64,000 nucleotides of DNA from a phage, in sequence record NC_100372.1; one strand, given 5' to 3'. Under the pieces are notes generated by a model. That model was not told the origin of the DNA and ran no database searches. It saw nothing but the letters and a program-made list of their open reading frames with translations. The position numbers and the translations under genes are program-made. This document shows, in pieces, positions 9,752 through 42,312 of this stretch; position 1 is the first letter of the stretch; each line of letters begins with the position of its first letter.

Positions 9752-9752
9752 T

Positions 9753-10694: not shown

Positions 10695-10696
10695 TT

Positions 10697-11594: not shown

Positions 11595-11596
11595 AT

Positions 11597-12070: not shown

Positions 12071-12237
12071 AACGAAGATACCATTACGTGATGTGGAAGT
12101 TATATCATGGTGCTGCTAAGGCTTATCGAGCCGTGTTTGGTAATGACAATCACTTCATTATGTTACACCTTACATCCATTGAGCATCACAATGAGTGGAT
12201 TCGTGAAATCGTAATAGGTGACAAAGACTTTAAGTAA
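12067..12237 (+). CDS. possible small ORF (56 aa), translationally coupled
   Basis: ATG overlaps stop of HAD gene (ATGA); below the 60-aa track cutoff; fills an otherwise empty 200-nt gap. Weak evidence. Confidence 0.25.
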   Translation: MKRRYHYVMWKLYHGAAKAYRAVFGNDNHFIMLHLTSIEHHNEWIREIVIGDKDFK

Positions 12238-12267
12238 AGTATGGCTTTCTAGATGGAGACTGACTAA

Positions 12268-12648: not shown

Positions 12649-12657
12649 TCTATTTTA

Positions 12658-12675
12658 AGGCCTCAAACGAGGCCT
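12658..12675 (+). other. stem-loop (AGGCCTC-AAAC-GAGGCCT), not a clean terminator
   Basis: 7-bp stem just after stop of 12268..12648; no U-tract on either strand. Confidence 0.3.
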
Positions 12676-12752
12676 GTGCCTTCATAAACTGCCTACCTCT
12701 GTGTGATTACCTCTCTAAATAAAATACCCTCTCAAATTGCTTAAAATTAAGC

Positions 12753-12781
12753 TTGACATCAACACCAGATTTATATATGAT
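12753..12781 (+). promoter_or_regulatory. sigma70-like promoter (TTGACA-17-TATGAT)
   Basis: -35 TTGACA 12753-12758, 17-nt spacer, -10 TATGAT 12776-12781; upstream of 12812..13219. Confidence 0.5.
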
Positions 12782-12811
12782 TATCTCATCAACCAAGCAG
12801 AGGAGATTGTC

Positions 12812-13219
12812 ATGGATAATCTTGCAAGTGTGAACGTCGAAATTGTTAAACTAAAGTTCTTGGGCTTTCGAGACCCTAATTCTCTAACAGCTATACTGAT
12901 GGATACCCACTTCACACCTGGGAAAGAGTACACTGCCTTCCGTTATATTTGCGGAGATCACGAATCGGCCTATAGTGTGAATACAAACCTCGGCGAGGGA
13001 TATTTCATCAAAGATATCACAGATCACTTGTGGGGTATGTGGGAATTGGTGGAAGAAGAGAATAAATCCCTTCCCAAAGAGATTTGGGTGCACACCTTCC
13101 ACACAGGTAAGTTCGGAGGTACGGAACATAAGTCTATCCACTATGATGAAGTAAGTGCCATCAAACAACAAGCTGTGCTTGGTGGATCTGTAGAAAAATT
13201 TGTTAAATGCGAGGACTGA
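12812..13219 (+). CDS. hypothetical protein
   Basis: Track ORF 12737..13219 contains the promoter; ATG at 12812 (MDNLASV) has SD GAGGAG upstream. Confidence 0.5.
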   Translation: MDNLASVNVEIVKLKFLGFRDPNSLTAILMDTHFTPGKEYTAFRYICGDHESAYSVNTNLGEGYFIKDITDHLWGMWELVEEENKSLPKEIWVHTFHTGKFGGTEHKSIHYDEVSAIKQQAVLGGSVEKFVKCED

Positions 13220-27065: not shown

Positions 27066-28556
27066 TTAAATAGTTTGTTGGAAAGTTATATTACTTTCGT
27101 CTAGGTCAAACACCTCAGTCATGTTTGCAACAATATCGTTTGTAGTGTAAGCTTCATCAGAGGCTCCCACAGGTTTTACTTGAATCACAAGTCTGTTAAA
27201 TCTGCCTATTGACACAGCAGCTGATGCAGCACCAACCAATTGGATATTGTACAACGTATCTGCAACATCCAGTCCGTTAACAACCTGCAAAAGAGCCTCT
27301 ACAATGGCATCTTTTTCGGTTGTGGAAAGCGCAGCACCTGAGTAGGTAATTCTTACATCTAGGCGGTAGGTATTTGCCTTGGAGTAATAAATCCTTTCAG
27401 TCTGACCGTCTGATGTGGTAATATCGTAGAAGATATTCCCATAAGTTCTGTTTGTGCAAGCTATGGTTTGATACAGCGCCTGACAGATATCCTCTGTTGC
27501 ACCACCAAACACCACCACTTGAAACTTATAAGGTGGTATACCTTTCGCATCCGTTTTATCGGTGTTGTTAGAGAACACTCTTACTTTCTCAACACCTTTC
27601 ACCTCGCTTACAGCGCTAAGAATTGCAGGACGGGTAGCTTTAGATGTCAGCTGTTTAGTGCTGGAAGCTCTTAAGCGATACTCAGAGTCTTTCTCAACAT
27701 CCCTACCCTCATTGAATCTTTCTCGGTTGGTAAGCTTGATAAATCCACTGGGAGTAGGTGACATTGTTGTCACGGTTTCTGCCTCTCTTGACAGCTCACC
27801 AGCCTCGTTAGCGATAACATCTAGGGTGATAGTTCTTTCCCCTACAATCGGGGATACTCTGAAATCTACCCTGCTATTAAGTCCAACTTGATCAAGATTC
27901 GAATTGTACCCTATCCACAACGTCCCTGTCAACATATCTATCTGAATTAAATCATCATTCAGCAGGGTTGTATTATCGACAATGAATTGCTTAATCTCAC
28001 CGTAAAAGCTTGGCAAATCAGAAGAGTCCAGAGCCTTATCTGTTAAAACCAGACTTTTTGTTTTGATACTTCCGTCTGTCTGGTTGGTAATTTGAAAGTT
28101 GTATTTCCCAATTCTTAGGTCTGGAGCGTTTATTCTGTGAGCAATAAGATTTCCCGCCACCTGCACATCGTTGCTAAGAACAAAGTTGCCACTGTCCAGC
28201 GTATAAGTTTTGGAATCATAAATCATATTGTATGGCACAGTTGTGTTGATTGTCAACTGGCAGGTACCTGATGATTTAGAACGGCCTCTTCGGTAAATAC
28301 CCTGTCTTCCAAGAAGCTCATCCAGGTAAATACCTTCTGCCCCATACAGCGTCTGCGATGCGTATACAGATGCTGCCATAAGAATAAGTTGATACTCTCG
28401 CTCGTTGAAGATAGTGGTCAGCTTATCTGCAACGGAGTTACTCTGTACGTTGAAGTTTTCGCCAAAAGCACGGATCAGGCTTTGCTTAGTTTCAACGATT
28501 AGGTCATTTAGGGTTGGTATAACGAAACCAGCCTCTGTCAATCCATACTTAGCCAC
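27066..28556 (-). CDS. baseplate J-like protein
   Basis: 496 aa; size, position and overall composition fit baseplate wedge (gpJ / gp6-like) proteins. Low-resolution call. Confidence 0.4.
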   Translation of the reverse strand: MAKYGLTEAGFVIPTLNDLIVETKQSLIRAFGENFNVQSNSVADKLTTIFNEREYQLILMAASVYASQTLYGAEGIYLDELLGRQGIYRRGRSKSSGTCQLTINTTVPYNMIYDSKTYTLDSGNFVLSNDVQVAGNLIAHRINAPDLRIGKYNFQITNQTDGSIKTKSLVLTDKALDSSDLPSFYGEIKQFIVDNTTLLNDDLIQIDMLTGTLWIGYNSNLDQVGLNSRVDFRVSPIVGERTITLDVIANEAGELSREAETVTTMSPTPSGFIKLTNRERFNEGRDVEKDSEYRLRASSTKQLTSKATRPAILSAVSEVKGVEKVRVFSNNTDKTDAKGIPPYKFQVVVFGGATEDICQALYQTIACTNRTYGNIFYDITTSDGQTERIYYSKANTYRLDVRITYSGAALSTTEKDAIVEALLQVVNGLDVADTLYNIQLVGAASAAVSIGRFNRLVIQVKPVGASDEAYTTNDIVANMTEVFDLDESNITFQQTI

Positions 28557-28660: not shown

Positions 28661-31600
28661 TTAGTCGTGAGACTCATTCCAAGGACCTTGGAAACTTGAG
28701 TTAGAACGACTTACAACGACTGTAGGACAAGATATTGTAATGCCTGTCACGTTCCCTGTTGACCATGGTGTGTAAATCTCGATAATAATGTCTATAGTTT
28801 GTTCATCTAGACCTGTTATCCCAACTGCACACATGCCATCGTTATCGTTTCCGTACTTCTTGCCAGCAAGTAGTTGGTGACCAGCTATCCACGCATTTAG
28901 TTGAGAGTTGGCACGAGTACCGTTCAGTTTAAAGAAGAATGTTACGTTTTTACCTTGGCCTTGCACGTTGTCCACATATCTCCACCTCCAACGGCAAACC
29001 CTTTGCTGCGAGTTATATACTGGAGCACAATCTCCGTAAGTCCTGTGTGCAACAATCGCACCTTCGAACTGGTTAGCACGGATAACGGAAGCTTCTACAC
29101 GTCCACGGAATGTACCTCCTGTTGCATCTATGGTCCCTCTAAAGCTACCATTGTTGGCATAAACATCTCCACGGAAGGTACCACTGGTGGCGTTAACTGC
29201 CCCTGTGAAGTTACCTGCACTAGCGTTGATGTTACCTTTCACCCACACATCCATAAACTGGGCGTGCCCGTTCTTGTTAATATACCAACCGTATTTGTGG
29301 TACCCGTTGCCATCGTAGTTGTTTGACGAAATTTCTTGCGCGATCTTGGCAGAAGAGATCGTGCCGTTCTCTATAAAAGCGTCTTTCAAGAACGCTTGGT
29401 TGTTCTTGATTGCGAAAGCAAGGGTTGCTGTTCCATTGCCTGGGTTGTATACCGCAAAGTTGTTTGCGCTAACCATGAAATATGACTGAACTTGGCCTCC
29501 AGAGCCTTCCATGCCTAACTGGATACCTGCCACATACTTATTCCCTGCGGAGTCTACCTGTATTTTTGTGCCCCATTGAGCATTTACTTTGCCCTCTAAG
29601 TCGGTCACAGCCTTAGATGTTGTAGCCACTGCAGCTCTGAGTTCGGTCACATCTCCAACATCATCAATAATCTCCTGCTTAGCAACAGCAAGTTCTTGAC
29701 GAATAGCTGACGCTGTGCCATTAATAAGGTCAACAGTAGACTTATTAGTTTCAGAAATATTCGCAGACAATTCTTTCTTAGTCTGAGTCAGCTTATTATC
29801 CAACCCGGTAATGTTATTGGTGTTGGTTGTAATCTGCCCTTTAGCAGTGGTTAACTGCTCAGTCAAAGCTGCCGTTTTCTGATTCAATAGGTCAGTTGTG
29901 GCCTTGTTGGTGGTAGAAATCAACGTATTAAGATCAGACTTGGCGGTGTTTATCTTACCATCAAGCGTGGTGTAGTTTTTGGACACTGTGGCGTTGGTCT
30001 GGCTAATCTTCTGGTCAAGAGTCTCAGAAGTTCTGTTCAGCAAGTCCACAGTGGCCTGGTTAGTGCTCAGAATGCTCGCATCCAACTCAGATCTTTGAGT
30101 ATTCAACTTGCCCTCTAGGCTCTTATCACCAGCCAGATAGCCTTTTTCAACATCTCCGATCTGCTCAGTCAACTCTCCCTGTGCAGCAACCAGTTTTTCA
30201 TCCAACGCCTCTGTTTTCTTATTAAGAAGATCAGTGGTGGATTTGTTGGTTGACTCAATCAAGGATGATAGTTTAGCACTCTCATTCTGCAGGTTGTTGG
30301 TCAACTCACCTTTCGCTGCTGTCAGCTTATTGTCTAAAGCCTCGGTTTTCCGATTAAGGAGATCTGTAGTCGTTTTATTGGTTGAAACAATCAGAGAGTT
30401 CAGCTCAGAGCTTTCCTGTGCCAAAGCATCTTCCAATTCACCCCTTGTTGAAACAATCTTCTCGTCCAAAGCTTCGGTTTTCTGATTTAACAGATCGGTT
30501 GTAGCTTTGTTAGTGGTCTGTATTAGAGAAGTCAGCTTACCACTTTCTTTAGAAAGATCATCTGCAAACTTGTTCTGAGTGGCTACCAGTTTCTGGTCTA
30601 GAGTGGTAAGCGTTCCATTAACGTCCTGGAAGTTGTCGTGGGTTTCTTGGATGAATATTCCAACCCTATCCCCCAACTGAGCATACAGCTTGTCTACTCT
30701 AGAGAACTCACCTTCCATGTGGTCAAAAGCCTCGTCAACTCTACCATCCATGTACCTGTTAAGTTCTGTGACACGATTTTCAACCTCTTCGATAGAGGAA
30801 TCTAAAGTGCTCATCAACTCTTTATAAGTTTCTGTCTTTTTAAATTCAGCATCTATCTGAGGCATCAAATCTTCAATAGAGGTGTAGCAGCGTGCAGCGC
30901 ATTCTATAAACTGAGAACTACCAAAAGCGTTTGTGGTTCGAATATACCAATAATAGATCTTATCATTCTGCAGACCTTCAGATGTCCAAGTTGAACCAAC
31001 ACCCATACGAGTGGCTTTTGAAGTAACGGTTGCATCACTTGTGTCTGGCAGCCTTGTCATACCAGATGTCCAAAAGTCATACTGGGTGCTTACACTTGCT
31101 AAGTCCCTGCTGTGCGGAATCAAGGTGATAGCAAAGTATCCCTGCTTAACTTCTACAGAAACCGGAGCTTCAGGTGCCTGAATGTTAAACTCGCAGTAAG
31201 CTTCTGGAGATACACCACCTTTATAAGATGTTGCAACCACGGTTGCTGTGTATGATCCTTTGGTCAATCCTTCTACACGGACAAACTGCTCAACTGTCTG
31301 TGCTGTCCAAATAATCTCTCCGTTCTTTCTTACCTGCACAATATTTTGAGCATAAGTTCCAACGTTGTCCCAAGCCAAAACACCATGAGTTACTTCCCCA
31401 GCTTGAAGAACAGAGTATCTGAAGTTTTGCGGTTGAGCTACGCCGGACGGGGATATCGGAATATCCACATCTCCAGAATCCGGAAGTTGCCCTGTGGCAT
31501 CATTCCACTCTTTAGCATCTTGACGGAGTTTTACCTTGACACCGCCCTTTTTGGTGAACTCCCACTCAAGAACCCTCATTTCTTGGCCCACTATACCAAT

Positions 31601-32806
31601 ACTTGGAAGGTCCATCGTAACGTAACGCCCAGGCTTAAATTTAAAACCCCGCATATTGCAGGTTACTTCAATAATCCTACCAGCTCTGGCACGTCTTAAG
31701 AAGATTGCAGAAACACGCTGAGCTTGATAAGGACTGGTAACAAAGCGATAATCTATATCGATTATCTTTCTTTCTCCATCCTTCTCTATCCACTCTGGGA
31801 CAAACACTGATGGAAAATCTGTTTCAGAATACCCTTTAGCCGGACTAGTGAATCTGCCAGTTATTGTGTTGGATCTTTTGTCGAAGGAGGCTTCAGGATA
31901 GATCTTAACCTCACCGCAAACACAGTCCTCACTCAGTGTCATTGTTGCCGGGCCATAGTATGCACCTACCAGCAGACCATATTTGCCAGCTACATAGCTA
32001 AGGTCTGCACCACAAGCTTTCAGCATCTCTGCCATAATGCTTGCTGGTGCTTCATCCATGTCGAACTCGCCATTAATGGTGTAACGGCGCTCACTGGTTC
32101 CGTCCGCGTTTTTTACAGCCTCGTCGCATATGTTGGCAGCTTCCTTGAAGGACTCCCAGTTGATGGTTTCGTCAGGACATTTAAGGTACGTTCTTAGGTA
32201 GTCCAGAATCACCAGGGCAGCGTTATTGGTATGCACCTCTTTACTGATACGAGGATCATAACATTTTTTACCAACCTTGACGAGTGTAACGTTTGGCAAC
32301 CCAAAAGGAAACTTGTTAGGGTCAAACTTGAAGCTGGCACGTAGCCAACTGATCCCTCTACCTATCATGTCCGGTGTCCACGAAGGGCAGTGTGTGCCCA
32401 TGAAAGGATCAGAGGTTTTTCTGTCGTTATGTAGCTCCCAAGATACCAAATCTCCATATGAGGAAATAGGATTACCGTCGATAAGTATATCTTCTATACC
32501 TTCCAAGGGATGATTGGCAAGAACAATAGCACAATGAAGGGTTCTGTCCCTGTCCTGCTCCAAAAACGCAAGCAATCCAGATGTGCGTGTCTTCCCATAC
32601 ACTACAGAGCAAGGTGCAGCAGAAGATCTGAGAAGCTTTTGTCTATCTTGCTGACTTCTGTAAGATTTGTTACCTTCGAAAATCTTATCCAAGGTTCTGG
32701 TGGTAACAGTGTTCAGGCTGTCAGCCAGAGCTGCCTTGGATGCGTTCCAGTCATAGCTCGAAGATCTTGCAGAAGCAACGATGTTATCAATCATTGCAAT
32801 TGGCAT
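28661..32806 (-). CDS. large tail/baseplate protein with repeated coiled-coil segments
   Basis: 1381 aa; about eight repeats of TTDLLNQKTEALDEKL-type ~35-aa units in the middle; beta-rich C-terminus; N-terminal third resembles phage central-fibre / host-specificity proteins. Confidence 0.5.
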   Translation of the reverse strand: MPIAMIDNIVASARSSSYDWNASKAALADSLNTVTTRTLDKIFEGNKSYRSQQDRQKLLRSSAAPCSVVYGKTRTSGLLAFLEQDRDRTLHCAIVLANHPLEGIEDILIDGNPISSYGDLVSWELHNDRKTSDPFMGTHCPSWTPDMIGRGISWLRASFKFDPNKFPFGLPNVTLVKVGKKCYDPRISKEVHTNNAALVILDYLRTYLKCPDETINWESFKEAANICDEAVKNADGTSERRYTINGEFDMDEAPASIMAEMLKACGADLSYVAGKYGLLVGAYYGPATMTLSEDCVCGEVKIYPEASFDKRSNTITGRFTSPAKGYSETDFPSVFVPEWIEKDGERKIIDIDYRFVTSPYQAQRVSAIFLRRARAGRIIEVTCNMRGFKFKPGRYVTMDLPSIGIVGQEMRVLEWEFTKKGGVKVKLRQDAKEWNDATGQLPDSGDVDIPISPSGVAQPQNFRYSVLQAGEVTHGVLAWDNVGTYAQNIVQVRKNGEIIWTAQTVEQFVRVEGLTKGSYTATVVATSYKGGVSPEAYCEFNIQAPEAPVSVEVKQGYFAITLIPHSRDLASVSTQYDFWTSGMTRLPDTSDATVTSKATRMGVGSTWTSEGLQNDKIYYWYIRTTNAFGSSQFIECAARCYTSIEDLMPQIDAEFKKTETYKELMSTLDSSIEEVENRVTELNRYMDGRVDEAFDHMEGEFSRVDKLYAQLGDRVGIFIQETHDNFQDVNGTLTTLDQKLVATQNKFADDLSKESGKLTSLIQTTNKATTDLLNQKTEALDEKIVSTRGELEDALAQESSELNSLIVSTNKTTTDLLNRKTEALDNKLTAAKGELTNNLQNESAKLSSLIESTNKSTTDLLNKKTEALDEKLVAAQGELTEQIGDVEKGYLAGDKSLEGKLNTQRSELDASILSTNQATVDLLNRTSETLDQKISQTNATVSKNYTTLDGKINTAKSDLNTLISTTNKATTDLLNQKTAALTEQLTTAKGQITTNTNNITGLDNKLTQTKKELSANISETNKSTVDLINGTASAIRQELAVAKQEIIDDVGDVTELRAAVATTSKAVTDLEGKVNAQWGTKIQVDSAGNKYVAGIQLGMEGSGGQVQSYFMVSANNFAVYNPGNGTATLAFAIKNNQAFLKDAFIENGTISSAKIAQEISSNNYDGNGYHKYGWYINKNGHAQFMDVWVKGNINASAGNFTGAVNATSGTFRGDVYANNGSFRGTIDATGGTFRGRVEASVIRANQFEGAIVAHRTYGDCAPVYNSQQRVCRWRWRYVDNVQGQGKNVTFFFKLNGTRANSQLNAWIAGHQLLAGKKYGNDNDGMCAVGITGLDEQTIDIIIEIYTPWSTGNVTGITISCPTVVVSRSNSSFQGPWNESHD

Positions 32807-33243
32807 TAATACCTCCAGACATCAACAACGATAGAATCTTTCATGTCGAACATAAAGATCCCTTTATCACCTTTCGCCCAAATCTGATTGTTCCAGAACA
32901 CACCAGCGGTGAGCCCGTTCAGACCTTCGAAAATAACAATATCGCCACGCTGAACCTGTTTAGGAGTATCCAGTCGAGTCAAAAAGAGATCAAAAATAGT
33001 AGGCAGATGTGTGGTTTTGAAACGAAGCATGCACCATCTCTTGCTTTCCAACTCTGTTTTATACGTTCCTTCAAAGTTAGAAAGAAAATCTGTTCCGTAT
33101 TGGGCATCAACACACTTAGCCGCAAAAGTGCAGCAATCGTGGAATCCCCATTCAAACGGGACGGTGGCTTCTTCGTCAAACACTTTCCACAATCTTTCTT
33201 GCCAGTCCACTAAACGAGGGTGTGTGCTCATTAAACCTCCCAA
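32806..33243 (-). CDS. small tail-associated protein
   Basis: 145 aa; 1-nt overlap with downstream large gene. Confidence 0.35.
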   Translation of the reverse strand: MGGLMSTHPRLVDWQERLWKVFDEEATVPFEWGFHDCCTFAAKCVDAQYGTDFLSNFEGTYKTELESKRWCMLRFKTTHLPTIFDLFLTRLDTPKQVQRGDIVIFEGLNGLTAGVFWNNQIWAKGDKGIFMFDMKDSIVVDVWRY

Positions 33244-33797
33244 ATGATCGGGCGGCTTGCCACCTGATCCACATATTTAAAAAATCTGTCATTATCGTTT
33301 CTTGAGCTATGGCTCTCCTCTGTGTATCGATAAGGAAAACCTCTTAACCAGCTGTTGAAGATGGAAGATATGGATATGGACAAAGCACTATTCTCCCCTG
33401 TCTGAATAGCCATGTCTGTTATAAGGCCGTCAAACAAGCCATTGGTTGTAACAGGTAAACCATTCTCCATGGCTGTGATATACAACGTGGCACGACAACC
33501 CGAATACTCTGTCTTCAGCAGATCACCTACATACTTGGGATCAAACCCGTTCAATGTTGCTACCACAGACCCAAAGTTGGTGGCATCTTTCTCAGATACA
33601 GCAGTCAATGTTGCTGATCCCCCTATCCCTATAAAATGTTGCCCCTCAATCACCACAACACCAGTTCCTGAGCACACCCTAACAGTCCCTGTTGGTAGCT
33701 CTAGCTTTGCAGCAATTAAGATCTCAACACTATCAAGCTCCAGCTTTTCAAGAAATAAATTATCTAATGGCGCTCTAATCATCTTAGAAATCCTCAA
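33231..33797 (-). CDS. tail/baseplate protein
   Basis: 188 aa; overlapping-stop coupling with neighbours in structural module. Confidence 0.4.
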   Translation of the reverse strand: MRISKMIRAPLDNLFLEKLELDSVEILIAAKLELPTGTVRVCSGTGVVVIEGQHFIGIGGSATLTAVSEKDATNFGSVVATLNGFDPKYVGDLLKTEYSGCRATLYITAMENGLPVTTNGLFDGLITDMAIQTGENSALSISISSIFNSWLRGFPYRYTEESHSSRNDNDRFFKYVDQVASRPIIWEV

Positions 33798-34374
33798 AGA
33801 AGTTGATAACTATATTATCACCTTTTTGCATAGCATCGACTTTTTGCTTAATTTTATAAATATCCCTGATATGAAACCTACCCTTTGGGGATTGAGTTAT
33901 TATCTTCATAGTGTCCCCTGCGGCAATAGGTTTTCTAAGTCTTGGAGATATGCTTATAACAGCAGACCCAACACCATCGCTGCGCACTGGAGCTGTTACC
34001 ACTTTCAATTCATCGTTAACAGATATTTTATCCCCAGCTCTAGCTATGTCTCTGTTTGGCTCCCATCCGACCGTCTTCAAAAAATCGTCGTTACCAGTAG
34101 GCCCAAGGGCGATTGGCTCATTAGCTGTTACTGAGTGACCGTACGTTTTAATAAGAAAAATGTTCCCATCTTTATACACCTGATCAACAAAGCTCTTAAG
34201 CTCTAGCAGCTGTGACTCGCTGATATTGGAAACCGTCAAAGTGCCTTTCCAGTTAGGTGTGGCATAGGTCACTTTTTGCGTTTTACCTGTAAACGGACTT
34301 TTAAACGTAACAATATCTGCCAGCAGCTCCAATCTGATGTCTGGAAGGTATCTAGGCCTTTCCCATAAAAACAT
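33784..34374 (-). CDS. tail/baseplate protein
   Basis: 196 aa; in structural module. Confidence 0.4.
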   Translation of the reverse strand: MFLWERPRYLPDIRLELLADIVTFKSPFTGKTQKVTYATPNWKGTLTVSNISESQLLELKSFVDQVYKDGNIFLIKTYGHSVTANEPIALGPTGNDDFLKTVGWEPNRDIARAGDKISVNDELKVVTAPVRSDGVGSAVISISPRLRKPIAAGDTMKIITQSPKGRFHIRDIYKIKQKVDAMQKGDNIVINFFEDF

Positions 34375-34435: not shown

Positions 34436-34466
34436 ACAAACAAAAAGCCCCCGCCGAAGCGAGGGC
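34436..34466 (-). terminator. intrinsic terminator (RNA GCCCUCGC-UUCG-GCGGGGGC then UUUUUGUUUGU)
   Basis: Variant of the CCCCGC-UUCG-GCGGGG core, downstream of stop of 34474..38283. Confidence 0.5.
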
Positions 34467-34473: not shown

Positions 34474-37400
34474 TTACTTCAGTTTCTCTTGCAACCCAGT
34501 AACAACCTCTGTCAATTTTTTAACCTGCTCCTCAAGGGAGGTTATTTTATCATCCTGTTCCCTACAAACTTGGACAAGCAAGCCTGTCACAGCTGCGTAG
34601 TCAACATTATAGAATCTTTCCTCGGTCATCAGAGGAATACCATCTTGAGTAGAACCAGGAACCTCTTTCCTTTTCACGAAAGAACCAACCGCTTCAGGTA
34701 ATGCTTCCATAACCTCTTGAGCAATTACCCCCGCGTGAGGCATACCATTCTCTTTTAGAGTGTAGGTATAGCCCTTCATCTTACGGATAGCTTCCAGCGC
34801 GTTAGGAATAACCTCTATGTTATCCTTCAGGTCTCTATCAGAGCTCTGGCTCACAGTGGTGCACTCAACTACACCGTTGACAGCAAAATATCTTGACTTA
34901 GCCTCGTCTGCCCTAGCCCCGCAGTGGAATACCCAACTAGCAGAAGAAGAGTTGTCGTTTATCTGAAACTCAAGAACGTTCTTCCTGTCTGCGCCGTTAC
35001 CCCAATAGTACATTCTACCTGAATTGGCGGGTAAGTTATCGGCGTTACTAGAAAGACTGTTAGCACCGACATGAATTTCCAGTTGATTACTGGTTTCACC
35101 AAAAGTGTAATTAGGTCTTAACTGGATGCCCTTACCAGCATCGTGTCTCCATTCTTCCCAAGTAAAGACATCGCCAACGTAGTTACCAGCACGAGTATAT
35201 CTGTCACCAAAATAGGTGATATATTCCTGCACACAACCTTGAGGTCTGTTAGCTGTGTTTTTGTAAACAAGCAGTGTACCAGCGTACGGAGCAGGGTAGT
35301 GGCGATCTATTACAAGTGCGTCAGCGTTTGAACCTTGGTGATAGAAACCTTCACGGCTACCATCATAGGCATTAAGGTCTTCTGTCCCCAGACCTTGACC
35401 ACGGTGCTGAATAACTTTGTTCCACGCCCTGTGGTTACCACCCTCAATAGATCTGGTGTATAACTGATCAAGGCGACCAGCCATTTGGAAAGCATAGTTT
35501 CCAGAAAACGCCACAGACAGTCCACCAACAACCATCGAACCTTCTGGCCCGTTGACGTTGCCAGCCATTATTTTTGACGGGTTATTAGGCCCGAACTGGT
35601 TGTTCCAGTCTCCACCAGTATGACATACAAAACCACCAGGGGCTGAGAAAGTACCATCTTTGTTGAAGTTGTAGAATCTGTGAGCGGAACCTACAACATC
35701 ACGAACAATAACTTGACCAGCTTCTGGAGTAGACCTGAACTCTGCTTGGCCTTGAAGGCCAGCACCATTACCGCATTTAGAGGTAAACGTGCCGTTAGTT
35801 AGATCCTCTGTTCCGTCAGATGCACACTGGAACCCTGCATTAGAGAATAACGCCTTTCTAGGACTGCCGTAGCACAAATAGTCAAGACCGTCTGCCCACA
35901 GCTCGACTTTAGGCATGTTCGTTTTGCTCATCACTGCATAGCGTTCAGGAGTCCCCAGGTAGTGCCACATAGTTCCACCACCAGTGTAGAAACCTGATGT
36001 TCCTTTGAACTCAACCAGAGGTCTGGTGTTTGTTACATCATCACCTTTGATTGCAAGACTCAAATCTGCAGATTCCAGAGGAGCACAGAACTTGACACCA
36101 TCTTGGTTACCTGTCACGTTGCCTACTTGCCAATCAGCCTCCCTGGTTGACACTTCTATTACAGTAGCGCCAGCATATACTGTAACAGGGAATGCACGTG
36201 CCTCTACATAGAATGCAACATACTCCTGCTTACCTCTGGTTGGAGATACACATCCGAGGATTGCTCTCTCGTTTTGGTAGAAATTAATAACCCCTTGGAA
36301 AGAATCACCTCTGTCCGTCCAGCCACCAGTTCTGTAGTGACACTGTAGTGTAGCACAGTTCATTGGGTCGCCGCCAGAAGAAGATCTGGTGACAATGGTT
36401 AAATCTGTCCCGATAGTTGCTGCAAAGTTGGGGTCAGTTCTGACGATAATAGGATAATACTTACCGTCCTGCATAGCTGCAGTTCTGGGCAGGTTTACAT
36501 ATGGTCTAGCGCCTGCTGCCAGAGGGATTCTGAATTGTGCTTGAGCATCCCCTACAGTCCTGGCACTGGTACCACCACAAGCTATCGGTAGTGGTTCCCA
36601 TTTGGCTTTCCGGTTGTTATAAACACCCCACTCAAGCGTTCCTTCACCTTGCTCGTCCATACCGCCATCCCAGATGACCATCTTGGCGGCTTTCTTAGAT
36701 CCCCAGAAACCTCTTTCTGCCCTTGAACTGCGGATCCATTCTCCAAGTCCCCAGTTTGCCAGCTGACCGTTCAGATCACCAACCTGCATATATTTAGGAC
36801 AATCTAAGACCCCATCCTCGCGGAAGCCTAAATATCTATGAGTTTCAGATCCTTTTGCGCCTTTGTGCAGGTGGATTGTCAACCAAGCCTTATTGTCGTT
36901 TCTTACCTCAGAGTAGATCCTATACCCATGCTCAAGGACACCGTCAGCGCTGTATTTGTCCCCGTTAACAATACCTGATGCCGACTTAACATCAGCCGAG
37001 CTTTGAGACAGGTAAAGGTGCCCGAAGGTAGGAGAATTCCTAGACCCAAGACCGATGTGCGATCTAAAGGTCTCATCGTTACGAGGTCTGACCATCGGCT
37101 GCCATGCAGTCCACTGGTTTGTGTTGGCCTGATAGGTTCTCAAATACCAAACATCTACGTTAGAGAATGGGTAGTATTCCTGACGACAGCCTGTACCGCC
37201 GTTAGCATTGTTCTGCCAGACAATCAAGTGACCAGCACCAGAACCTGCAGGGTAACCATTTGCCTCAGTTGCATAAGCAGTCATCGGCTGGTAGTATATA
37301 CCATCCTGATTACCAGTCAAGTTATTGATATTAAAATTTGACTCAAGGGCTGCACGTTGCTTATAGAAAGCCCCTAAATTAATGCGTGCACCTGCGGCAT

Positions 37401-38283
37401 CTCTGGCCCCTGTACCGCCCTGCTCTATAGCAAGAGGTTGCCACGAGGCTGTTTGTTGGTTCCACATACCCCAACGGCCTGTTGCATCAAGCTGCAAGTA
37501 CCCTGCCGTGTTTAAATCATCTCCGGCACGGATAACTGTTCTTGTTGGGTTGTTTGCCTCCAGGCGTTTAAATTCGTCACGAAGTGCTATTCTTTTTGTT
37601 GTTGCTACACCGTTGGCTACTGCAATGGTATACATGGCTCCGGAGGTAGCGCCACGGAAAATGCCATCAACAGTTGTAGTATCACGACGAGATACCACAC
37701 CGTTCAGAAATTTTTCACCCGCCGCTTCAGAAGGGTAGTTAGTAGTTCTTCCCTCTTCAATAACTGCAGGACCAACAAAGTTGACAAGGTGAATAACATC
37801 GCCTACAGTATGCACTGTGCCAAAATCTACCCGCTGTGCAAGTGCTTTAGCATCGTTGGCTGTCTGAACAGTAACATCCATTACATCCTGGACAGACTGC
37901 CCTTCGGCTGTCATGATCATAGATGCGCCAATGGTAGACTCCAGCTCCTCCCTTAAGGACGGATCTGTATATACCATCCACGCAGCGTCAGTAATCCCAC
38001 CGTCAGAATATGGTGAAGACAGTGCAGGGACAGTGTGTGGAAATTCGCCTTTCCAACGCAGGTATAGATCTTCCTCTTCGAAGTAGGCAAAATCCATTGG
38101 GCCGTTTAACTTACCACCTTCCTTAAAGGAGATTACATGAGAAACAGTCCCATCCACATGGACAACATCGCCAATTTTCACACGACGGGTCAGGTCTGGT
38201 TGTTGAACAACCAGGTAATCATCCTCTGTCACTGCGGTAGTGGCAGGAAGAGATTCAATTCTGACAACTTTAATATCAGCCAT
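34474..38283 (-). CDS. long tail fibre protein
   Basis: 1269 aa; first ~90 aa shared with the 222-aa protein at 40918..41586 (DD(F/Y)LVV-Q-D-TR-KI-DVV ... EGG ... FAY); remainder Gly/Asn/Thr-rich. Confidence 0.5.
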   Translation of the reverse strand: MADIKVVRIESLPATTAVTEDDYLVVQQPDLTRRVKIGDVVHVDGTVSHVISFKEGGKLNGPMDFAYFEEEDLYLRWKGEFPHTVPALSSPYSDGGITDAAWMVYTDPSLREELESTIGASMIMTAEGQSVQDVMDVTVQTANDAKALAQRVDFGTVHTVGDVIHLVNFVGPAVIEEGRTTNYPSEAAGEKFLNGVVSRRDTTTVDGIFRGATSGAMYTIAVANGVATTKRIALRDEFKRLEANNPTRTVIRAGDDLNTAGYLQLDATGRWGMWNQQTASWQPLAIEQGGTGARDAAGARINLGAFYKQRAALESNFNINNLTGNQDGIYYQPMTAYATEANGYPAGSGAGHLIVWQNNANGGTGCRQEYYPFSNVDVWYLRTYQANTNQWTAWQPMVRPRNDETFRSHIGLGSRNSPTFGHLYLSQSSADVKSASGIVNGDKYSADGVLEHGYRIYSEVRNDNKAWLTIHLHKGAKGSETHRYLGFREDGVLDCPKYMQVGDLNGQLANWGLGEWIRSSRAERGFWGSKKAAKMVIWDGGMDEQGEGTLEWGVYNNRKAKWEPLPIACGGTSARTVGDAQAQFRIPLAAGARPYVNLPRTAAMQDGKYYPIIVRTDPNFAATIGTDLTIVTRSSSGGDPMNCATLQCHYRTGGWTDRGDSFQGVINFYQNERAILGCVSPTRGKQEYVAFYVEARAFPVTVYAGATVIEVSTREADWQVGNVTGNQDGVKFCAPLESADLSLAIKGDDVTNTRPLVEFKGTSGFYTGGGTMWHYLGTPERYAVMSKTNMPKVELWADGLDYLCYGSPRKALFSNAGFQCASDGTEDLTNGTFTSKCGNGAGLQGQAEFRSTPEAGQVIVRDVVGSAHRFYNFNKDGTFSAPGGFVCHTGGDWNNQFGPNNPSKIMAGNVNGPEGSMVVGGLSVAFSGNYAFQMAGRLDQLYTRSIEGGNHRAWNKVIQHRGQGLGTEDLNAYDGSREGFYHQGSNADALVIDRHYPAPYAGTLLVYKNTANRPQGCVQEYITYFGDRYTRAGNYVGDVFTWEEWRHDAGKGIQLRPNYTFGETSNQLEIHVGANSLSSNADNLPANSGRMYYWGNGADRKNVLEFQINDNSSSASWVFHCGARADEAKSRYFAVNGVVECTTVSQSSDRDLKDNIEVIPNALEAIRKMKGYTYTLKENGMPHAGVIAQEVMEALPEAVGSFVKRKEVPGSTQDGIPLMTEERFYNVDYAAVTGLLVQVCREQDDKITSLEEQVKKLTEVVTGLQEKLK

Positions 38284-38297
38284 TCTTTCTCCTGAAA

Positions 38298-38314
38298 GGG
38301 GGCAAACAGCCCCC
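38298..38314 (-). other. GC hairpin (GGGGGC-loop-GCCCCC) immediately upstream of the RBS of 34474..38283
   Basis: 6-bp GC stem followed on the minus-strand transcript by only UUU, then SD AGGAG and the start codon; may act as a weak terminator or processing signal. Confidence 0.35.
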
Positions 38315-38318
38315 TATG

Positions 38319-40916
38319 TTAAAGGTACAATCCACGGTATTGAGCATAAAGGCCAAGACCGCGAAGGATTTCGCCAGAGTGATAGCCTACCGGATCAGAA
38401 ACTGCCCAGCAGCCATTTAAAACATTATCCCCATTAATAAAGTGGTGCTTTTGCAGTAGCTTCATACAGGCTTCTACAACAATATCTATTTGAGGTATTG
38501 TTTCTGAATACCCGCACAGACCTAGCCAGCAGCAACCTGCAAGCCATTCACCTACCACCCACATCCTATCTCCTCTATCTTGATAAGAGTATCCACCAGA
38601 GGTGTTAAAGTCTGTAGGCAAATTTCCTGAATGGGATGACTGGAATCTGTTGAGGAACCATGCCCATTTCTGGCAGAACAGGAACAGTCTTTCATCAACA
38701 GGCTCTTTATGTTTCTTGAGCTCATATATTGTGCGGCACGCAGCAACAAAAGATCTTGACTGGAGCTTAGAGTTATCTACCATCTCCCACCAACCAGTCA
38801 ACCCTTCATTACCTCTTTGCCATACATAACGTGAGGCAACTGGACCCTCTGTCTTAAATGTATTGTTATACCAGACTTGAGAGTCATACAGAAAGCCTAT
38901 TGTATTTGACAATCTATGGCGGTCTATGTTTTCTGCACCCATGCAGTAGACTGCTGGGTATTGCATACCAGGACAGGGCCAACTTGGCCTTTCCTCTAAG
39001 AGATAATTTTCCTTATCTATCACCTTTCCGGCAGGGAACACACCTGGGGTGTGCCTGTAGGCACCTTGCTTGTAGTTTCTGACATAGCAATCACCAACCT
39101 TGGCGGTTGATTCTGTCTTGCTTGCCATCCATACGCTAAACCAGATTAGATAAGCATCCCTATCTGCAACATAAAATTGCGGCAGTGTGTTGACGCAATA
39201 CAGATCGAACAAGCCATTACCTATCTGCCTGTCGCTCAGACTGAAATCTACAGAGGTAATTCCTTTAGGGTTAGCAAAGAAAGGTTTAATCTCATCTTCT
39301 GTGTGATGAGGTTGTGTTGGGTCTAGTTTAAAATCACCTAGGGTAAGAGTTTCTGTTACCCATTGCCCGTTAGTGGCATATAGATCAGCATACCATAACC
39401 AACGGTCTTTGTCAAGAAATTTGACCCTTACCATCTCATCATCTGATCGATAAGTCACTGAGTTTAAAGAAATCTCTCTTCCAAAATTGAAAGTTACTTT
39501 GCCTCTTACTATATTGCAACGGGTGAAGTTGTCGGAGTGGTTGTAAATGTCGGTACCATACTGCATACTGACACTCGCGCCACCGCTTACGGTAATGTTT
39601 TCCTCTTTTGGCAAGAGATACGGGTTACCGTCTTTACCAACCACCTCCACGAAATCGGTGACCTTGGCAACTGTCTCTGTTACCTCTGCCCCTCCAAAAG
39701 GGACCCCTATCCTATACTGTTTTTTGTTATTGTTGCCATCATTAAGGATGAAATGTGGCTGGAACAGGACCCCTTCTCCTCCAAAATTCATAACAATTTC
39801 GGCATCTCTGCCTATTTTGTATGTAGTCCCTTTTTGGATTATTTCGCAAGGCTGGCGTGCGTTCATTCTAAAATTGATATATCCGTCACTATCCCTACTC
39901 ATGACAGGTACTGTTCCTGCAACTAGACAAGCGCCATCTGTGAACGGGGCCTTAATCAACGTGGTCTTTCTGAACAGCTTGTCGTAGGCATTTATATCAC
40001 TAAAATTAAGCAACTTATTGTAAGACTGCTTAAACGCGGTGTAATACTTTTCCTCACCTGTCAGGGTGTAGAGTTGATAACAAGCGTCACACCACATCTC
40101 TTCCCCATCTAACTCTGGGGCTTGATTGTCTGCAACCACGTTTATAGGATTTACAATTACAGGGGATCCAGCAGGTATCACCGATCCGCCCTGCTCTTGA
40201 GGCAATCTCACACAATAGGTAACCTTGTGGTTGCCTGTAACACCCTTATCTTGCAGTTGGATTGTGCCGAACTCTGCAGACGTATGACCACTGTCGGCTA
40301 TGCTACCGTTGGCCCAATAGCGGTTACCATCCCATGCTATATACCACTCAACCCACCAACTTAATCCGGAAGTTGTCCAATTAGGATTAGCATCTGTGCC
40401 GCCGTAAACATCAGAGTCTACAGTGTTTCTTCCTAAAACACCGTTATACGCCTGAAAAGCCTTGTCCAAGTATTCTCCCCATGTCGGGGATCCTGCTGGG
40501 ATTTTTCCTCTACCTTTGTTAAAAGACACAACCACATCTTTAAACCCACCATGTGATGGAACTCCATCTGTGGATAACGGGTAGTGGGACAATCTTTGCA
40601 TTTTACTTTCTACTGCATATACTCCCAGAAGATGACTGTTGTAGGCTTCCCAAGCCTCTTTGGCCCTGTCCAGATAAAAATCGCTTTTTGATGCCCTGTA
40701 TGCCTCAATGTATCCCAGAATCAACACAGCTTGGGACTCATGCATTGCCCAATCATTATTTATCTTACTTCCTGACCAACCTGACGCTATAAGTCCATCC
40801 TGGTTTACCAGTTTGTTCTGTGTAGGGAGATTGGTAATACCTGTGTTGTTATCGAGGCACTTCCTGTGCCCCTCGATCATCTGAAATACGTTATCAATGT
40901 TGTGTTGAATACGCAT
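38319..40916 (-). CDS. putative polysaccharide-degrading tail protein (alpha/alpha-toroid-like composition)
   Basis: 865 aa; Trp/Tyr-rich with helical-repeat-like N- and C-terminal regions (AWEAY, GEWLAGCCWLGLCGY); lacks the shared fibre N-terminal anchor. By-eye assignment. Confidence 0.4.
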   Translation of the reverse strand: MRIQHNIDNVFQMIEGHRKCLDNNTGITNLPTQNKLVNQDGLIASGWSGSKINNDWAMHESQAVLILGYIEAYRASKSDFYLDRAKEAWEAYNSHLLGVYAVESKMQRLSHYPLSTDGVPSHGGFKDVVVSFNKGRGKIPAGSPTWGEYLDKAFQAYNGVLGRNTVDSDVYGGTDANPNWTTSGLSWWVEWYIAWDGNRYWANGSIADSGHTSAEFGTIQLQDKGVTGNHKVTYCVRLPQEQGGSVIPAGSPVIVNPINVVADNQAPELDGEEMWCDACYQLYTLTGEEKYYTAFKQSYNKLLNFSDINAYDKLFRKTTLIKAPFTDGACLVAGTVPVMSRDSDGYINFRMNARQPCEIIQKGTTYKIGRDAEIVMNFGGEGVLFQPHFILNDGNNNKKQYRIGVPFGGAEVTETVAKVTDFVEVVGKDGNPYLLPKEENITVSGGASVSMQYGTDIYNHSDNFTRCNIVRGKVTFNFGREISLNSVTYRSDDEMVRVKFLDKDRWLWYADLYATNGQWVTETLTLGDFKLDPTQPHHTEDEIKPFFANPKGITSVDFSLSDRQIGNGLFDLYCVNTLPQFYVADRDAYLIWFSVWMASKTESTAKVGDCYVRNYKQGAYRHTPGVFPAGKVIDKENYLLEERPSWPCPGMQYPAVYCMGAENIDRHRLSNTIGFLYDSQVWYNNTFKTEGPVASRYVWQRGNEGLTGWWEMVDNSKLQSRSFVAACRTIYELKKHKEPVDERLFLFCQKWAWFLNRFQSSHSGNLPTDFNTSGGYSYQDRGDRMWVVGEWLAGCCWLGLCGYSETIPQIDIVVEACMKLLQKHHFINGDNVLNGCWAVSDPVGYHSGEILRGLGLYAQYRGLYL

Positions 40917-40917
40917 C

Positions 40918-41586
40918 TTAGATAGCTCCTGCGATGATCAGTGCCCCGTACCAAGTTAGTCCATTATCATATGTTTCCAACTTGAAAATGTCTGTTGCAC
41001 CAGCTGTAAATGTTAGGATAGGATCTCTTCCGTAGGCCCATTTAACATTGTCAGGCCAATAAACTTTGTTACCACCAGAGGTCTGCGTTATGCATACAGT
41101 TATAGTTCTTGCCACTCCGTCGAGCCCTTCTGTTTGATTTTCAAAAGAGATTGTGGTGTTTGAAGTGAGCCGAACTTTAAACGTGTCTGCAACGTCAAGA
41201 TCCATGTCAAGTTGACCACCAATAGAGCCGTAATCAACTATCCTACCTGAAGAAGTTGCAGCAAGCTCTCCAAAAACAGACCATGCTTTTGCAGACACAC
41301 CTCCGGCACCCTCTACAGTGGAATCTGGGAGGATTATTTTAGGATAATCTCCATTCCATGTGTAGTAGCGCTTAGTTTCCGGATCATAAGCAAAATCCTT
41401 CTTGCTCTTAAGATAACCGCCCTCTGTGAAATAAACTATTTTAGTAATGCTAAGATCATTGACAACATCATCAATCTTAGCCTTTCTTGTCCCGTCAGTC
41501 TGGTTGACAACCAAGAAGTCATCACTCAAGACTGTTTCTGCATCTTCAAGATCTGGGATTGGTATTGTAGGATAAGCTACAGCCAT
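40918..41586 (-). CDS. tail protein sharing the fibre N-terminal anchor domain
   Basis: 222 aa; N-terminus aligns with that of 34474..38283. Confidence 0.45.
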   Translation of the reverse strand: MAVAYPTIPIPDLEDAETVLSDDFLVVNQTDGTRKAKIDDVVNDLSITKIVYFTEGGYLKSKKDFAYDPETKRYYTWNGDYPKIILPDSTVEGAGGVSAKAWSVFGELAATSSGRIVDYGSIGGQLDMDLDVADTFKVRLTSNTTISFENQTEGLDGVARTITVCITQTSGGNKVYWPDNVKWAYGRDPILTFTAGATDIFKLETYDNGLTWYGALIIAGAI

Positions 41587-41595: not shown

Positions 41596-42312
41596 TTAGT
41601 TAACATCAATAGCACGACCAGACTGGTTGGCAATAGCCTCATCATTAGAGGTAGCAATAACACCAGAATATTCGCGCTCATCTGGAGCAAGCGTCCAGGT
41701 ATTGCGGTTAATGGTTTGTTCTGCATCAGTCATCAGCAGATCTTTATCCTGAGTCAACAGAGAACCTACAGGGATCGGGTTTTCCATCTCAGGACCAGCA
41801 TACTGGTTCCACCACGTAGCATCTCCAGTTCTAGGCAATCTGAAGTTGATCAGGTAGTACAGTTTATTAGCCCACTTAATCCAACCTTCATCATCACAAA
41901 GAGAGGTTGCCCCGTCATCAGGCTGTGGGTAGGTAAACTGATCAAGACCTACGAAAGCCAGCCTTACAATCTCGTTCTCCTTGGTAACAACCTCAAAGAA
42001 CGCTTGGTATGTTCTAGATCTTCGATCCATAGTAGACTGGAAGTTTATGATGTTTAGCACATCTGGCTCTTGTCTTGCCACTTCCATAATCTTGTTATCA
42101 AGAACAGTCTTCATGACCTTCTTACTGAGAAAGTCCATATAAGGGAAGCCAAACAACTCATCAAAGTACCAGCTCCCCTTCCATGTATTAAACCTCATCC
42201 ACAGGCGCTGGCGCAGACTTACTTGGTTTGAATCTATCAACTCAAGACCTTTGTCTATCGCCAAATCACCTGTCTGTGGGTCCATCAATATATCACTATA
42301 AAGCGTAGCCAT
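41596..42312 (-). CDS. baseplate protein
   Basis: 238 aa in baseplate cluster. Confidence 0.4.
   Translation of the reverse strand: MATLYSDILMDPQTGDLAIDKGLELIDSNQVSLRQRLWMRFNTWKGSWYFDELFGFPYMDFLSKKVMKTVLDNKIMEVARQEPDVLNIINFQSTMDRRSRTYQAFFEVVTKENEIVRLAFVGLDQFTYPQPDDGATSLCDDEGWIKWANKLYYLINFRLPRTGDATWWNQYAGPEMENPIPVGSLLTQDKDLLMTDAEQTINRNTWTLAPDEREYSGVIATSNDEAIANQSGRAIDVN

What the first reader, a model, noticed from the sequence alone, without database searches (positions are those of the whole stretch)
34474..41586. Shared N-terminal anchor module on a 1269-aa fibre and a 222-aa protein
The first ~90 residues of 34474..38283 and 40918..41586 align (DD(F/Y)LVV(N/Q)Q-D-TR-(A)KI-DVV ... EGG-L ... 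FAY ... Y-W-G-P). This suggests a common baseplate-docking domain with different distal parts, one long fibre and one short stub. Such modular anchors are the substrate for host-range swapping. The 865-aa enzyme-like protein between them lacks the anchor.
Basis: seen in the sequence. Interest (0 to 1): 0.4.

Follow-up and report, generated by a model that had tools for sequence, protein, structure and literature searches.

The report
Shared attachment head on two phage tail proteins
Two tail proteins of an rV5-like E. coli phage, a long exchangeable fibre and a short protein scored essential in a close relative, start with the same ~105-residue head that probably mounts them on the baseplate; this is a real but fairly ordinary case of modular phage receptor-binding proteins.

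Summary
The N-termini of the 1269-aa fibre and the 222-aa protein align over ~100 residues (38% identity, E = 3e-18; z = 31.6 against shuffles). No third copy exists in the window, and the 865-aa protein between them lacks the module. The window is an rV5-like Vequintavirus; the genes correspond to rV5 gp41, gp42 and gp43, all detected in virions.

The "anchor" has two parts. Residues ~47-106 are Pfam PF18668 (Tail_spike_N), the head domain of CBA120 and G7C tailspikes. Residues 1-46 are a separate N-terminal tag, significant on its own. In a related Mydovirus the tag heads five different tail proteins.

The same head carries beta-helix, collar, alginate-lyase, esterase-type and S74-capped distal parts elsewhere, so modularity is supported. 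Docking itself is inferred, and the partner is unknown; no gp10-like docking domain is detectable by sequence.

The stub looks like a minimal fibre: tag, head and a widespread fibre-tip beta-sandwich resembling the T4 gp9 / TSP4 XD1 fold. Published transposon data call its Bas54 orthologue essential, while the fibre tolerates disruption. Verdict: a new member of a known kind, of modest interest.

The parts
40918..41586 (-). Gene for the 222-aa 'stub' (orthologue of rV5 gp43 / bas54_0025): a minimal fibre made of tag, head and tip domain
   Evidence: ORF. phrog_7760 'tail fiber protein' at E = 2.6e-118. Orthologue detected in the rV5 virion proteome. The Bas54 orthologue is scored Essential, 7/47 TA sites hit.
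41446..41586 (-). Stub residues 1-47: N-terminal tag (sub-module 1), the presumed docking segment
   Evidence: 19/46 identities with the fibre's residues 1-46, z = 10.9. Always at the extreme N-terminus in relatives. Five proteins of Mydovirus AV124 start with it. pLDDT < 50 as a monomer.
41266..41445 (-). Stub residues 48-107: PF18668 Tail_spike_N head domain
40921..41253 (-). Stub residues 112-222: C-terminal beta-sandwich, a widespread tail-fibre tip domain resembling the T4 gp9 / TSP4 XD1 fold
38319..40916 (-). Gene for the 865-aa tail protein (orthologue of rV5 gp42 / bas54_0026); lacks the module; its start lies 1 nt after the stub's stop codon
   Evidence: ORF. phrog_2871 'tail protein'. 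No module. TAA-g-ATG junction. No Pfam, NCBIfam or PDB sequence hit. Bas54 orthologue scored Intermediate, 94/189. In the virion proteome.
34474..38283 (-). Gene for the 1269-aa lateral tail fibre (orthologue of rV5 gp41 / bas54_0027; probably RBPseg class TC12)
   Evidence: ORF. phrog_6578 at E = 0. Low-resolution cryo-EM of relatives places TC12 fibres at the baseplate wedge; the TC12 assignment rests on the matching description, not on a sequence comparison. Bas54 orthologue tolerates disruption, 154/238.
38146..38283 (-). Fibre residues 1-46: N-terminal tag (sub-module 1)
   Evidence: 66.8 bits to the tag HMM.
37966..38145 (-). Fibre residues 47-106: PF18668 Tail_spike_N head domain
   Evidence: Pfam 42.0 bits against a cut-off of 25. 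PDB sequence hits to Sf11 gp13 (E = 1.3e-10), B2 Gp48, G7C gp63.1 and CBA120 TSP1/3/4.
37294..37965 (-). Fibre residues ~107-330: neck and proximal shaft, conserved among alleles of this gene but not shared with the stub
   Evidence: Alleles P0005-P0008 align at 80-90% identity up to residue 331-455 and are then rearranged.
34687..34842 (-). Fibre residues 1148-1199: Peptidase_S74 intramolecular chaperone domain
   Evidence: Pfam 61.1 bits against a cut-off of 22. Replaced by a different C-terminal sequence in alleles P0006 and P0008, matching the lectin-like head described for some TC12 alleles.
34447..34466 (-). Terminator-like hairpin with a T-run directly after the fibre gene's stop; probable end of the transcription unit
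   Evidence: 8-bp stem with 7 G-C pairs, followed by TTTTTGTTTG.
27066..28556 (-). Baseplate_J-like wedge protein (496 aa): candidate docking partner, by inference only
   Evidence: Pfam Baseplate_J. In phi92, fibres I and III attach to the C-terminal domain of the homologous wedge protein gp145. No interaction was tested here.

Best explanation
The two proteins are old paralogues that share a two-part N-terminal attachment head. Part one is a ~46-residue tag (consensus ..[VI].[IV]..L........D.[LV][VI][VI].Q.D.T[RK][RK]...). Part two is a PF18668 'Tail_spike_N' domain. Each protein probably forms a trimer, and the head mounts that trimer on the periphery of the rV5-type baseplate. The tag most likely makes the specific contact, and PF18668 acts as the generic trimeric head beneath it.

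The fibre (1269 aa) adds a neck, a long shaft of shuffled modules and an S74 chaperone. It is an accessory, host-range-variable receptor-binding protein (RBP).

The stub (222 aa) adds only a ~110-residue beta-sandwich tip of the kind found at the end of many tail fibres. It behaves as a constitutive, essential baseplate-periphery component.

Shown here: the homology, the domain composition, the module boundary at ~residue 105, the diversity of distal parts, and the synteny. Shown in the literature: virion presence and differential essentiality. Inferred: trimerisation, that the head is the docking element, and where it docks.
For: Homology: E = 3e-18, with each half significant on its own.

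Domain identity: both proteins exceed the PF18668 gathering score, and the stub model superimposes on G7C gp63.1, CBA120 TSP1 and TSP3 heads.

Two-part structure: an exhaustive profile search shows positions 1-50 always at the extreme N-terminus, while positions 53-110 occur at offsets of 7 to ~430 in 576 proteins. Some proteins have an insert between the two parts.

The tag as a general RBP label: five proteins in Mydovirus AV124 start with it, and only one of them has PF18668.

Module boundary: similarity to non-orthologous spikes and fibres stops at residue ~102-110.

Distal diversity on the same head: Beta_helix, Collar, Alginate_lyase, SASA and Peptidase_S74. Seunavirus has a 712-aa protein in the syntenic position whose similarity to the fibre ends at residue ~134.

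Attachment role by analogy: the CBA120 TSP1 head binds TSP4 XD3. Sf11 gp13 residues 4-59, upstream of its PF18668-like region, bind the distal tail protein's adaptor helix.

Virion components: rV5 gp41, gp42 and gp43 appear in the proteome. TC12 fibres, which match the description of this gene family, are seen at the wedge by cryo-EM.

The stub belongs with the core baseplate: it lies directly after the sheath-initiator gene. In contig L004 it is followed by the wedge gene with no called fibre gene between them. Its Bas54 orthologue is scored Essential, while downstream genes tolerate insertions.
Against: No interaction was tested, and no docking partner was identified. A CBA120/G7C-type gp10-like XD2/XD3 partner is not detectable by sequence in the window.

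Residues 1-46 have no solved relative (best E = 0.83) and are modelled with pLDDT < 50, so their structure is unknown.

The two heads are only 35-38% identical, so they may bind different sites or partners.

PF18668-type heads also occur on a capsid spike (Pa223), so the domain does not by itself specify the baseplate.

Essentiality of the stub comes from one preprint on a relative whose first 110 stub residues are 99% identical, not on this phage, and 7 of 47 TA sites did take insertions.
Confidence: 0.7

Rival explanations
1. The stub is an adaptor or socket rather than a fibre. Like T4 gp9 or the branching tailspikes of CBA120 and G7C, it sits on the baseplate through the shared head and uses its C-terminal beta-sandwich to hold the anchor-less 865-aa protein or another fibre. 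That would build a branched fibre next to the 1269-aa fibre.
For: The 865-aa gene starts 1 nt after the stub's stop, and the same order with overlapping stop and start occurs in Seunavirus. The stub's distal domain has the fold neighbours of T4 gp9 and TSP4 XD1. The 865-aa protein has no recognisable anchor of its own. In phi92, fibre II attaches to the base of fibre I and is still unassigned. An essential socket would explain the stub's essentiality if it holds an essential fibre.
Against: Contig L004 has a stub with no 865-aa homologue called between it and the wedge gene. The stub is essential but the 865-aa protein is not, so the stub cannot be only its socket. In TSP4, XD1 is the domain judged unable to bind a trimeric partner. 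The same domain sits at the C-terminal end of many ordinary tail fibres, and its CpaA and StcE neighbours are described as glycan-binding modules, which fits a receptor-binding tip.
Confidence: 0.2
2. The shared module is a trimerisation and folding head only, and attachment is made elsewhere or through a separate adaptor protein. The similarity would then reflect a common structural scaffold rather than a common docking function.
For: PF18668 occurs at internal positions (offsets up to ~430) in hundreds of spikes whose true anchors lie further upstream. In Sf11 the modelled contact is residues 4-59, not the PF18668-like region. PF18668-type heads occur on a capsid spike too.
Against: This can hold for PF18668 but not easily for residues 1-46. 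That segment is strictly N-terminal, is conserved between paralogues (z = 10.9), and is the only element shared by five otherwise different AV124 tail proteins. Nothing lies upstream of it to serve as the anchor.
Confidence: 0.1

Closest known systems
CBA120 (Kuttervirus) TSP1/TSP3 and G7C gp63.1 tailspike heads (Pfam PF18668, Tail_spike_N)
   Different: The ~85-residue D1 domain upstream of PF18668 is replaced here by an unrelated ~46-residue tag. The tag HMM does not hit Kuttervirus TSPs, and TSP1 D1 does not hit the window meaningfully. No gp10-like XD2/XD3 partner is detectable by sequence. The host phage is an rV5-type myovirus with a different baseplate.
Sf11 siphophage tailspike gp13 docked on the distal tail protein adaptor helix (PDB 9OCC)
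   Same: Best PDB sequence match for both window proteins (E = 1.3e-10 and 5.1e-5), with a PF18668-like region preceded by a short N-terminal docking segment of similar length.
   Different: The gp13 docking segment is described as alpha-helical and forms a bundle with a Dit helix. The window tag is not similar to it in sequence, and its structure is unknown.
T4 gp9 / gp10 XD1 / CBA120 TSP4 XD1 beta-sandwich (also the CpaA and StcE glycan-binding modules)
   Same: The stub's C-terminal domain shares the set of structural neighbours reported for XD1.
RBPseg class TC12 fibres of Vequintavirus Bas49 and Bas54
   Same: Probably the same gene family as the 1269-aa fibre: S74-capped versus lectin-headed alleles, permutable internal modules, and density at the baseplate wedge.
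   Different: That work does not resolve the attachment and does not discuss the 222-aa protein or the shared head. The TC12 assignment here rests on the matching description rather than a sequence comparison.

Membership tests
Pfam PF18668 Tail_spike_N (TSP1/Gp66 N-terminal domain) | Score above the curated gathering threshold (25 bits) | tested here: met
   42.0 bits (fibre, residues 46-103) and 40.4 bits (stub, residues 51-104).
Pfam PF18668 Tail_spike_N | Fold of the head domain of solved members (G7C gp63.1, CBA120 TSP1/TSP3) | tested here: met
CBA120/G7C-type branched tailspike complex | A partner RBP with T4 gp10-like XD2/XD3 domains that receives the head | tested here: inconclusive
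   phmmer and hmmsearch with GG32 TSP4 and TSP2 XD2/XD3 queries against all window ORFs gave only noise (E >= 0.07, none in a plausible tail protein). The control XD3 found TSP2 XD3 at E = 5e-7. Fold-level presence was not tested.
CBA120/G7C-type branched tailspike complex | A D1 head domain immediately upstream of the PF18668 (D2) domain | tested here: not met
   Only ~46 residues precede PF18668. The tag HMM has no hit in GG32 TSPs, and TSP1 D1 has no meaningful hit in the window.
T4 gp9 / gp10 XD1-like domain | Beta-sandwich fold shared with T4 gp9, TSP4 XD1, CpaA and StcE | tested here: met
T4 gp9 / gp10 XD1-like domain | Sequence-family membership | tested here: not met
   No Pfam family at E <= 10 for stub residues 106-222, and no NCBIfam hit.
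Peptidase_S74 intramolecular-chaperone tail fibres | C-terminal PF13884 domain | tested here: met
   61.1 bits against a cut-off of 22, residues 1148-1199 of the fibre.
Peptidase_S74 intramolecular-chaperone tail fibres | Autoproteolytic release of the chaperone after trimerisation | not testable with these tools
   RBPseg reports no density for the peptidase domain on the RBP_11 fibre in Bas54 virions.
Sf11-type Dit-adaptor attachment | N-terminal helices forming a bundle with an adaptor helix of a Dit-like protein | tested here: inconclusive
   The tag is modelled at pLDDT < 50, with only one short helix at residues 38-44. It has no sequence similarity to solved chains. Dit-like proteins do exist in the window.
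P22 tailspike head-binding domain | Fold or sequence similarity of the N-terminus to P22 TSP residues 1-124 | tested here: inconclusive

The most novel reading that the evidence does not exclude
The ~46-residue N-terminal tag is a family-wide docking peptide for a so far undescribed receptor site on the Vequintavirinae baseplate periphery. This site would be distinct from the gp10-like XD2/XD3 system of Kuttervirus and G7C. The essential 222-aa stub would be a gp9-like minimal fibre or socket occupying one such site, and exchangeable fibres would occupy paralogous sites. If so, the stub could account for part of the unassigned density at the base of the lateral fibres in phi92 and rV5-type cryo-EM maps, and grafting the 105-residue head onto foreign spikes should mount them on rV5-like phages.
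Probability: 0.3. Interest if true: 0.5.

Novelty: new member of a known kind. Interest (0 to 1): 0.3.

Why it matters
rV5-like and phi92-like phages are broad-host-range candidates for therapy and biocontrol because they carry many fibres. It is still unclear which gene makes which fibre and how the fibres are mounted. A defined head with a sharp boundary near residue 105, together with a ~46-residue tag shared by up to five tail proteins in one genome, gives concrete junctions for RBP engineering. It also gives a testable handle for assigning unresolved cryo-EM densities. The contrast between an essential stub and a dispensable fibre on the same type of head shows that the shared anchor does not imply equivalent function. 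The general principle, a conserved N-terminal anchor with swappable distal domains, is well established, so this adds detail rather than a new concept.

Tried and rejected
1. Word-indexed homologue searches with the 110-aa module or the 222-aa protein returned almost nothing. I replaced them with tblastn against phage genomes and an exhaustive profile search.

2. Single-sequence AF2 of the stub failed (pLDDT 33.5) and was discarded. The 16-sequence MSA model was used only for residues 47-222.

3. A profile of residues 1-50 against PDB sequences gave no significant hit (E = 0.83 to crAss001 gp22).

4. A search for a gp10-like XD2/XD3 partner with Kuttervirus queries was negative, with a working positive control.

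5. A third, diverged copy of the tag in the window was not found, even with an 18-sequence HMM.

6. Positional analysis of transposon insertions in the fibre gene was abandoned. The per-site sheet I read is the liquid-competition library and is sparse over the whole gene, so the empty 5' end means nothing.

7. The BASEL label 'sialidase domain protein' for the stub is rejected: there is no family hit, and the sialidase structure match has E = 6.9 and probability 0.01.

8. An enzymatic nature for the 865-aa protein has no support from Pfam, NCBIfam or PDB sequence searches.

9. A recent duplication or gene conversion between the two heads is rejected. They are 35-38% identical, yet the stub's first 110 residues and the fibre's first 136 residues are each >= 99% conserved in more than 100 genomes, and fibre-type heads form a clade of their own.


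Full report
**What the window is.** The 8.4-kb region around the finding is 98% identical to Escherichia phage EI-SP-GF and 91-94% identical to about 120 rV5-like phages of the genus Vequintavirus. The minus strand carries a myovirus tail and baseplate cluster, in this order:
- tape measure (45383-47719)
- tube initiator
- plug
- hub
- central spike
- sheath initiator (41596-42312)
- the 222-aa protein (40918-41586)
- the 865-aa protein (38319-40916)
- the 1269-aa fibre (34474-38283)
- a lambda-like tip module (28661-34374)
- wedge proteins, followed by further fibres

By size, position and description the three genes correspond to rV5 gp43, gp42 and gp41, and to bas54_0025, _0026 and _0027 in phage MaxBurger.

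**The observation.** Both ORFs are as stated. BLASTP gives a single significant alignment, residues 7-105 against 8-105, with 38% identity and E = 3e-18. Shuffle tests give z = 31.6 overall. Each half is significant on its own: z = 10.9 for residues 1-46 and z = 17.7 for residues 47-106. HMMs of the module find only these two proteins among 440 window ORFs, so the 865-aa protein lacks it. The shared stretch is about 105 residues, not about 90.

**What the module is.** Residues ~47-106 of both proteins score above the gathering threshold of Pfam PF18668, 'Tail spike TSP1/Gp66 N-terminal domain' (42.0 and 40.4 bits against 25). PDB sequence hits for this part are Sf11 gp13, B2 Gp48, G7C gp63.1 and CBA120 TSP1/3/4.

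An exhaustive profile search of 1.84 billion representative proteins found 576 matches and split the module in two:
- Profile positions 1-50 occur only at the extreme N-terminus.
- Positions 53-110 (PF18668) occur at offsets from 7 to about 430 in proteins of 200-1100 aa.
- Some proteins have the first part, then an insert of roughly 50 residues, then PF18668.

The first part has no significant relative among solved structures.

In Mydovirus AV124, of the same subfamily, five proteins (250, 547, 559, 840 and 277 aa) between the hub and wedge genes begin with this tag. Only one of them carries PF18668. I added those five to the tag HMM after seeing the motif by eye, so their HMM scores are circular. 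The window and Seunavirus each have two tag-bearing proteins. I therefore treat residues 1-46 as a general N-terminal tag of Vequintavirinae receptor-binding proteins (RBPs), and PF18668 as a generic head domain beneath it.

**Modularity.** The complete head sits on proteins from 214 to 1599 aa. Their distal parts include a right-handed beta-helix, a tail-collar domain, an alginate lyase, a SASA-type esterase and S74-capped fibres. Similarity of both window proteins to these non-orthologous proteins stops at residue ~102-110. In Seunavirus NINP13076 the syntenic triad is 224 aa, 929 aa and 712 aa. The 712-aa protein shares only its first ~134 residues with the fibre.

Within Vequintavirus, alleles of the fibre gene remain 80-90% identical up to residue 331-455 and then differ by internal deletions or replaced tips. 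For example, P0005 equals residues 1-395 plus 969-1269. This matches the 'permutable' TC12 fibres described in the RBPseg paper. So the head is a true exchange unit over deep evolutionary time, but recent host-range variation occurs further out along the fibre.

**The two copies are old paralogues.** Their heads are 35-38% identical to each other. Yet the stub's first 110 residues and the fibre's first 136 residues are each at least 99% conserved across more than 100 genomes. In a neighbour-joining tree the fibre-type heads form their own clade. In one metagenomic lineage, stub heads (P0161, P0162) are closer to spike heads (P0013, P0015, P0016; 61-65% identity) than to other stubs (43-48%). 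This hints at exchange or co-evolution of heads within a lineage. I could not show that those proteins come from one genome.

Against predicted viral structures, about 104-111 columns superimpose at 1.5-3 A on many proteins annotated as tail fibres or 'tail fibre C-terminal domain'. P0163 carries the same domain behind a different, fibre-repeat N-terminus. The stub is thus a minimal fibre: tag, head and tip, with no shaft.

**Function from the literature.**
- rV5 gp41, gp42 and gp43 were all detected in virions. The gp43 N-terminus was noted in 2013 to resemble the P22 tailspike head-binding domain (PMC3606486).
- Cryo-EM of Bas49 and Bas54 at 7-9.5 A places TC12 fibres at the wedge without resolving the attachment (PMC12143355).
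- phi92 cryo-EM leaves fibres I and II unassigned. It shows fibres attaching to the C-terminal domain of the wedge protein, with fibre II attaching at the base of fibre I (PMC13450770).
- In the HIDEN-SEQ reference library of Bas54 on K-12, the stub orthologue is 'Essential' (7/47 TA sites hit), like the flanking core baseplate genes. The 865-aa protein (94/189) and the fibre (154/238) are 'Intermediate', and the text describes them as tolerating disruption. The lambda-like module is mostly non-essential (10.1101/2025.11.20.689424).

Because downstream genes tolerate insertions, a polar effect is an unlikely explanation for the stub's essentiality. In contig L004 a stub gene lies between the sheath-initiator gene and a gene 60% identical to the window's wedge protein, with no fibre gene called in between. 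The stub therefore behaves as a core baseplate component.

**Mechanism.** The best-supported reading is that both proteins use the shared head to sit on the baseplate periphery. In this reading the tag provides the specific contact and PF18668 provides the trimeric head. The analogies are the CBA120 TSP1 head binding TSP4 XD3 and Sf11 gp13 residues 4-59 binding the distal tail protein's adaptor helix.

The docking partner is unknown. No gp10-like XD2/XD3 domain is detectable by sequence, although the positive control works, and Kuttervirus spikes do not use this tag. The wedge protein's C-terminal domain is the most plausible site, by analogy with phi92. The divergence between the two heads suggests distinct or paralogous sites.

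Rivals:
- The stub is a gp9-like socket for the anchor-less 865-aa protein. This fits the tight gene coupling and the fold. It is weakened by L004, by the difference in essentiality, and by the domain's usual position at fibre tips.
- The shared module is only a folding scaffold. This is plausible for PF18668 but not for the strictly N-terminal tag.

**Comparison and novelty.** This is a member of the PF18668 head family but not of the CBA120/G7C branched-complex architecture as defined by D1 plus XD2/XD3 partners. Conserved N-terminal anchors with swappable distal domains are textbook for phage RBPs. The fibre family and the gp43 N-terminus were already partly described. Four points appear not to be spelled out in the papers I read:
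- the explicit gp41/gp43 head paralogy
- the two-part anatomy, with a tag shared by up to five proteins in one genome
- the fold of the stub's tip
- the link to the stub's essentiality

I rate this as a new member of a known kind, with interest 0.3.

Noticed in passing
window 28661-34374 (minus strand): A lambda/T5-like siphovirus tail-tip module sits inside this myovirus baseplate cluster. It comprises a Dit-like protein (33784-34374), a phrog_2048 tail protein (33231-33797), a DUF6950 protein (32806-33243) and a 1381-aa J-like protein with Phage_Tail_Tip and Ig_J domains (28661-32806). In Bas54 the orthologues bas54_0028, _0030 and _0031 are scored non-essential on K-12 and _0029 Intermediate.
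   Followed up: partly
window 34447-34466 and 38297-38315 (minus strand): There is a strong terminator-like hairpin (GCCCTCGC-TTCG-GCGGGGGC followed by TTTTTGTTTG) directly after the fibre gene's stop. A second G+C-rich hairpin (AGGGGGC-TGTTT-GCCCCCT) with only a short T-run lies between the 865-aa gene and the fibre gene, just upstream of the fibre's ribosome-binding site.
   Followed up: partly
window 34474-38283; proteins P0005-P0008: The fibre gene has internal repeats (residues ~264-378 resemble 545-655, and ~318-396 resemble 969-1047). Natural alleles look like deletions or replacements between these repeats, giving proteins of 617, 827, 988 and 1481 aa.
   Followed up: partly
GenBank records matched (e.g. 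MG065646.1, MG065647.1): Eighteen records named 'Campylobacter phage', with host given as Campylobacter jejuni, are ~91% identical to this E. coli rV5-like region over 8.4 kb. The host label looks doubtful.
   Followed up: no
window 40918-41586; BASEL records (bas59_0024, bas54_0025): The stub is annotated 'sialidase domain protein' in BASEL genomes. No Pfam or NCBIfam family supports this, and the only sialidase structure match is at noise level (E = 6.9, probability 0.01).
   Followed up: yes
L003 (Escherichia phage AV124, OR352954.1) 2749-13216: Five proteins in this Mydovirus begin with the same ~46-residue tag, and their downstream sequences differ. The region between the hub and wedge genes appears to be a variable RBP cassette across Vequintavirinae genera.
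   Followed up: partly
window 38319-40916: The 865-aa virion protein (orthologue of rV5 gp42) has no detectable Pfam, NCBIfam or PDB sequence relative and no recognisable anchor. How it is mounted on the particle is unexplained.
   Followed up: partly
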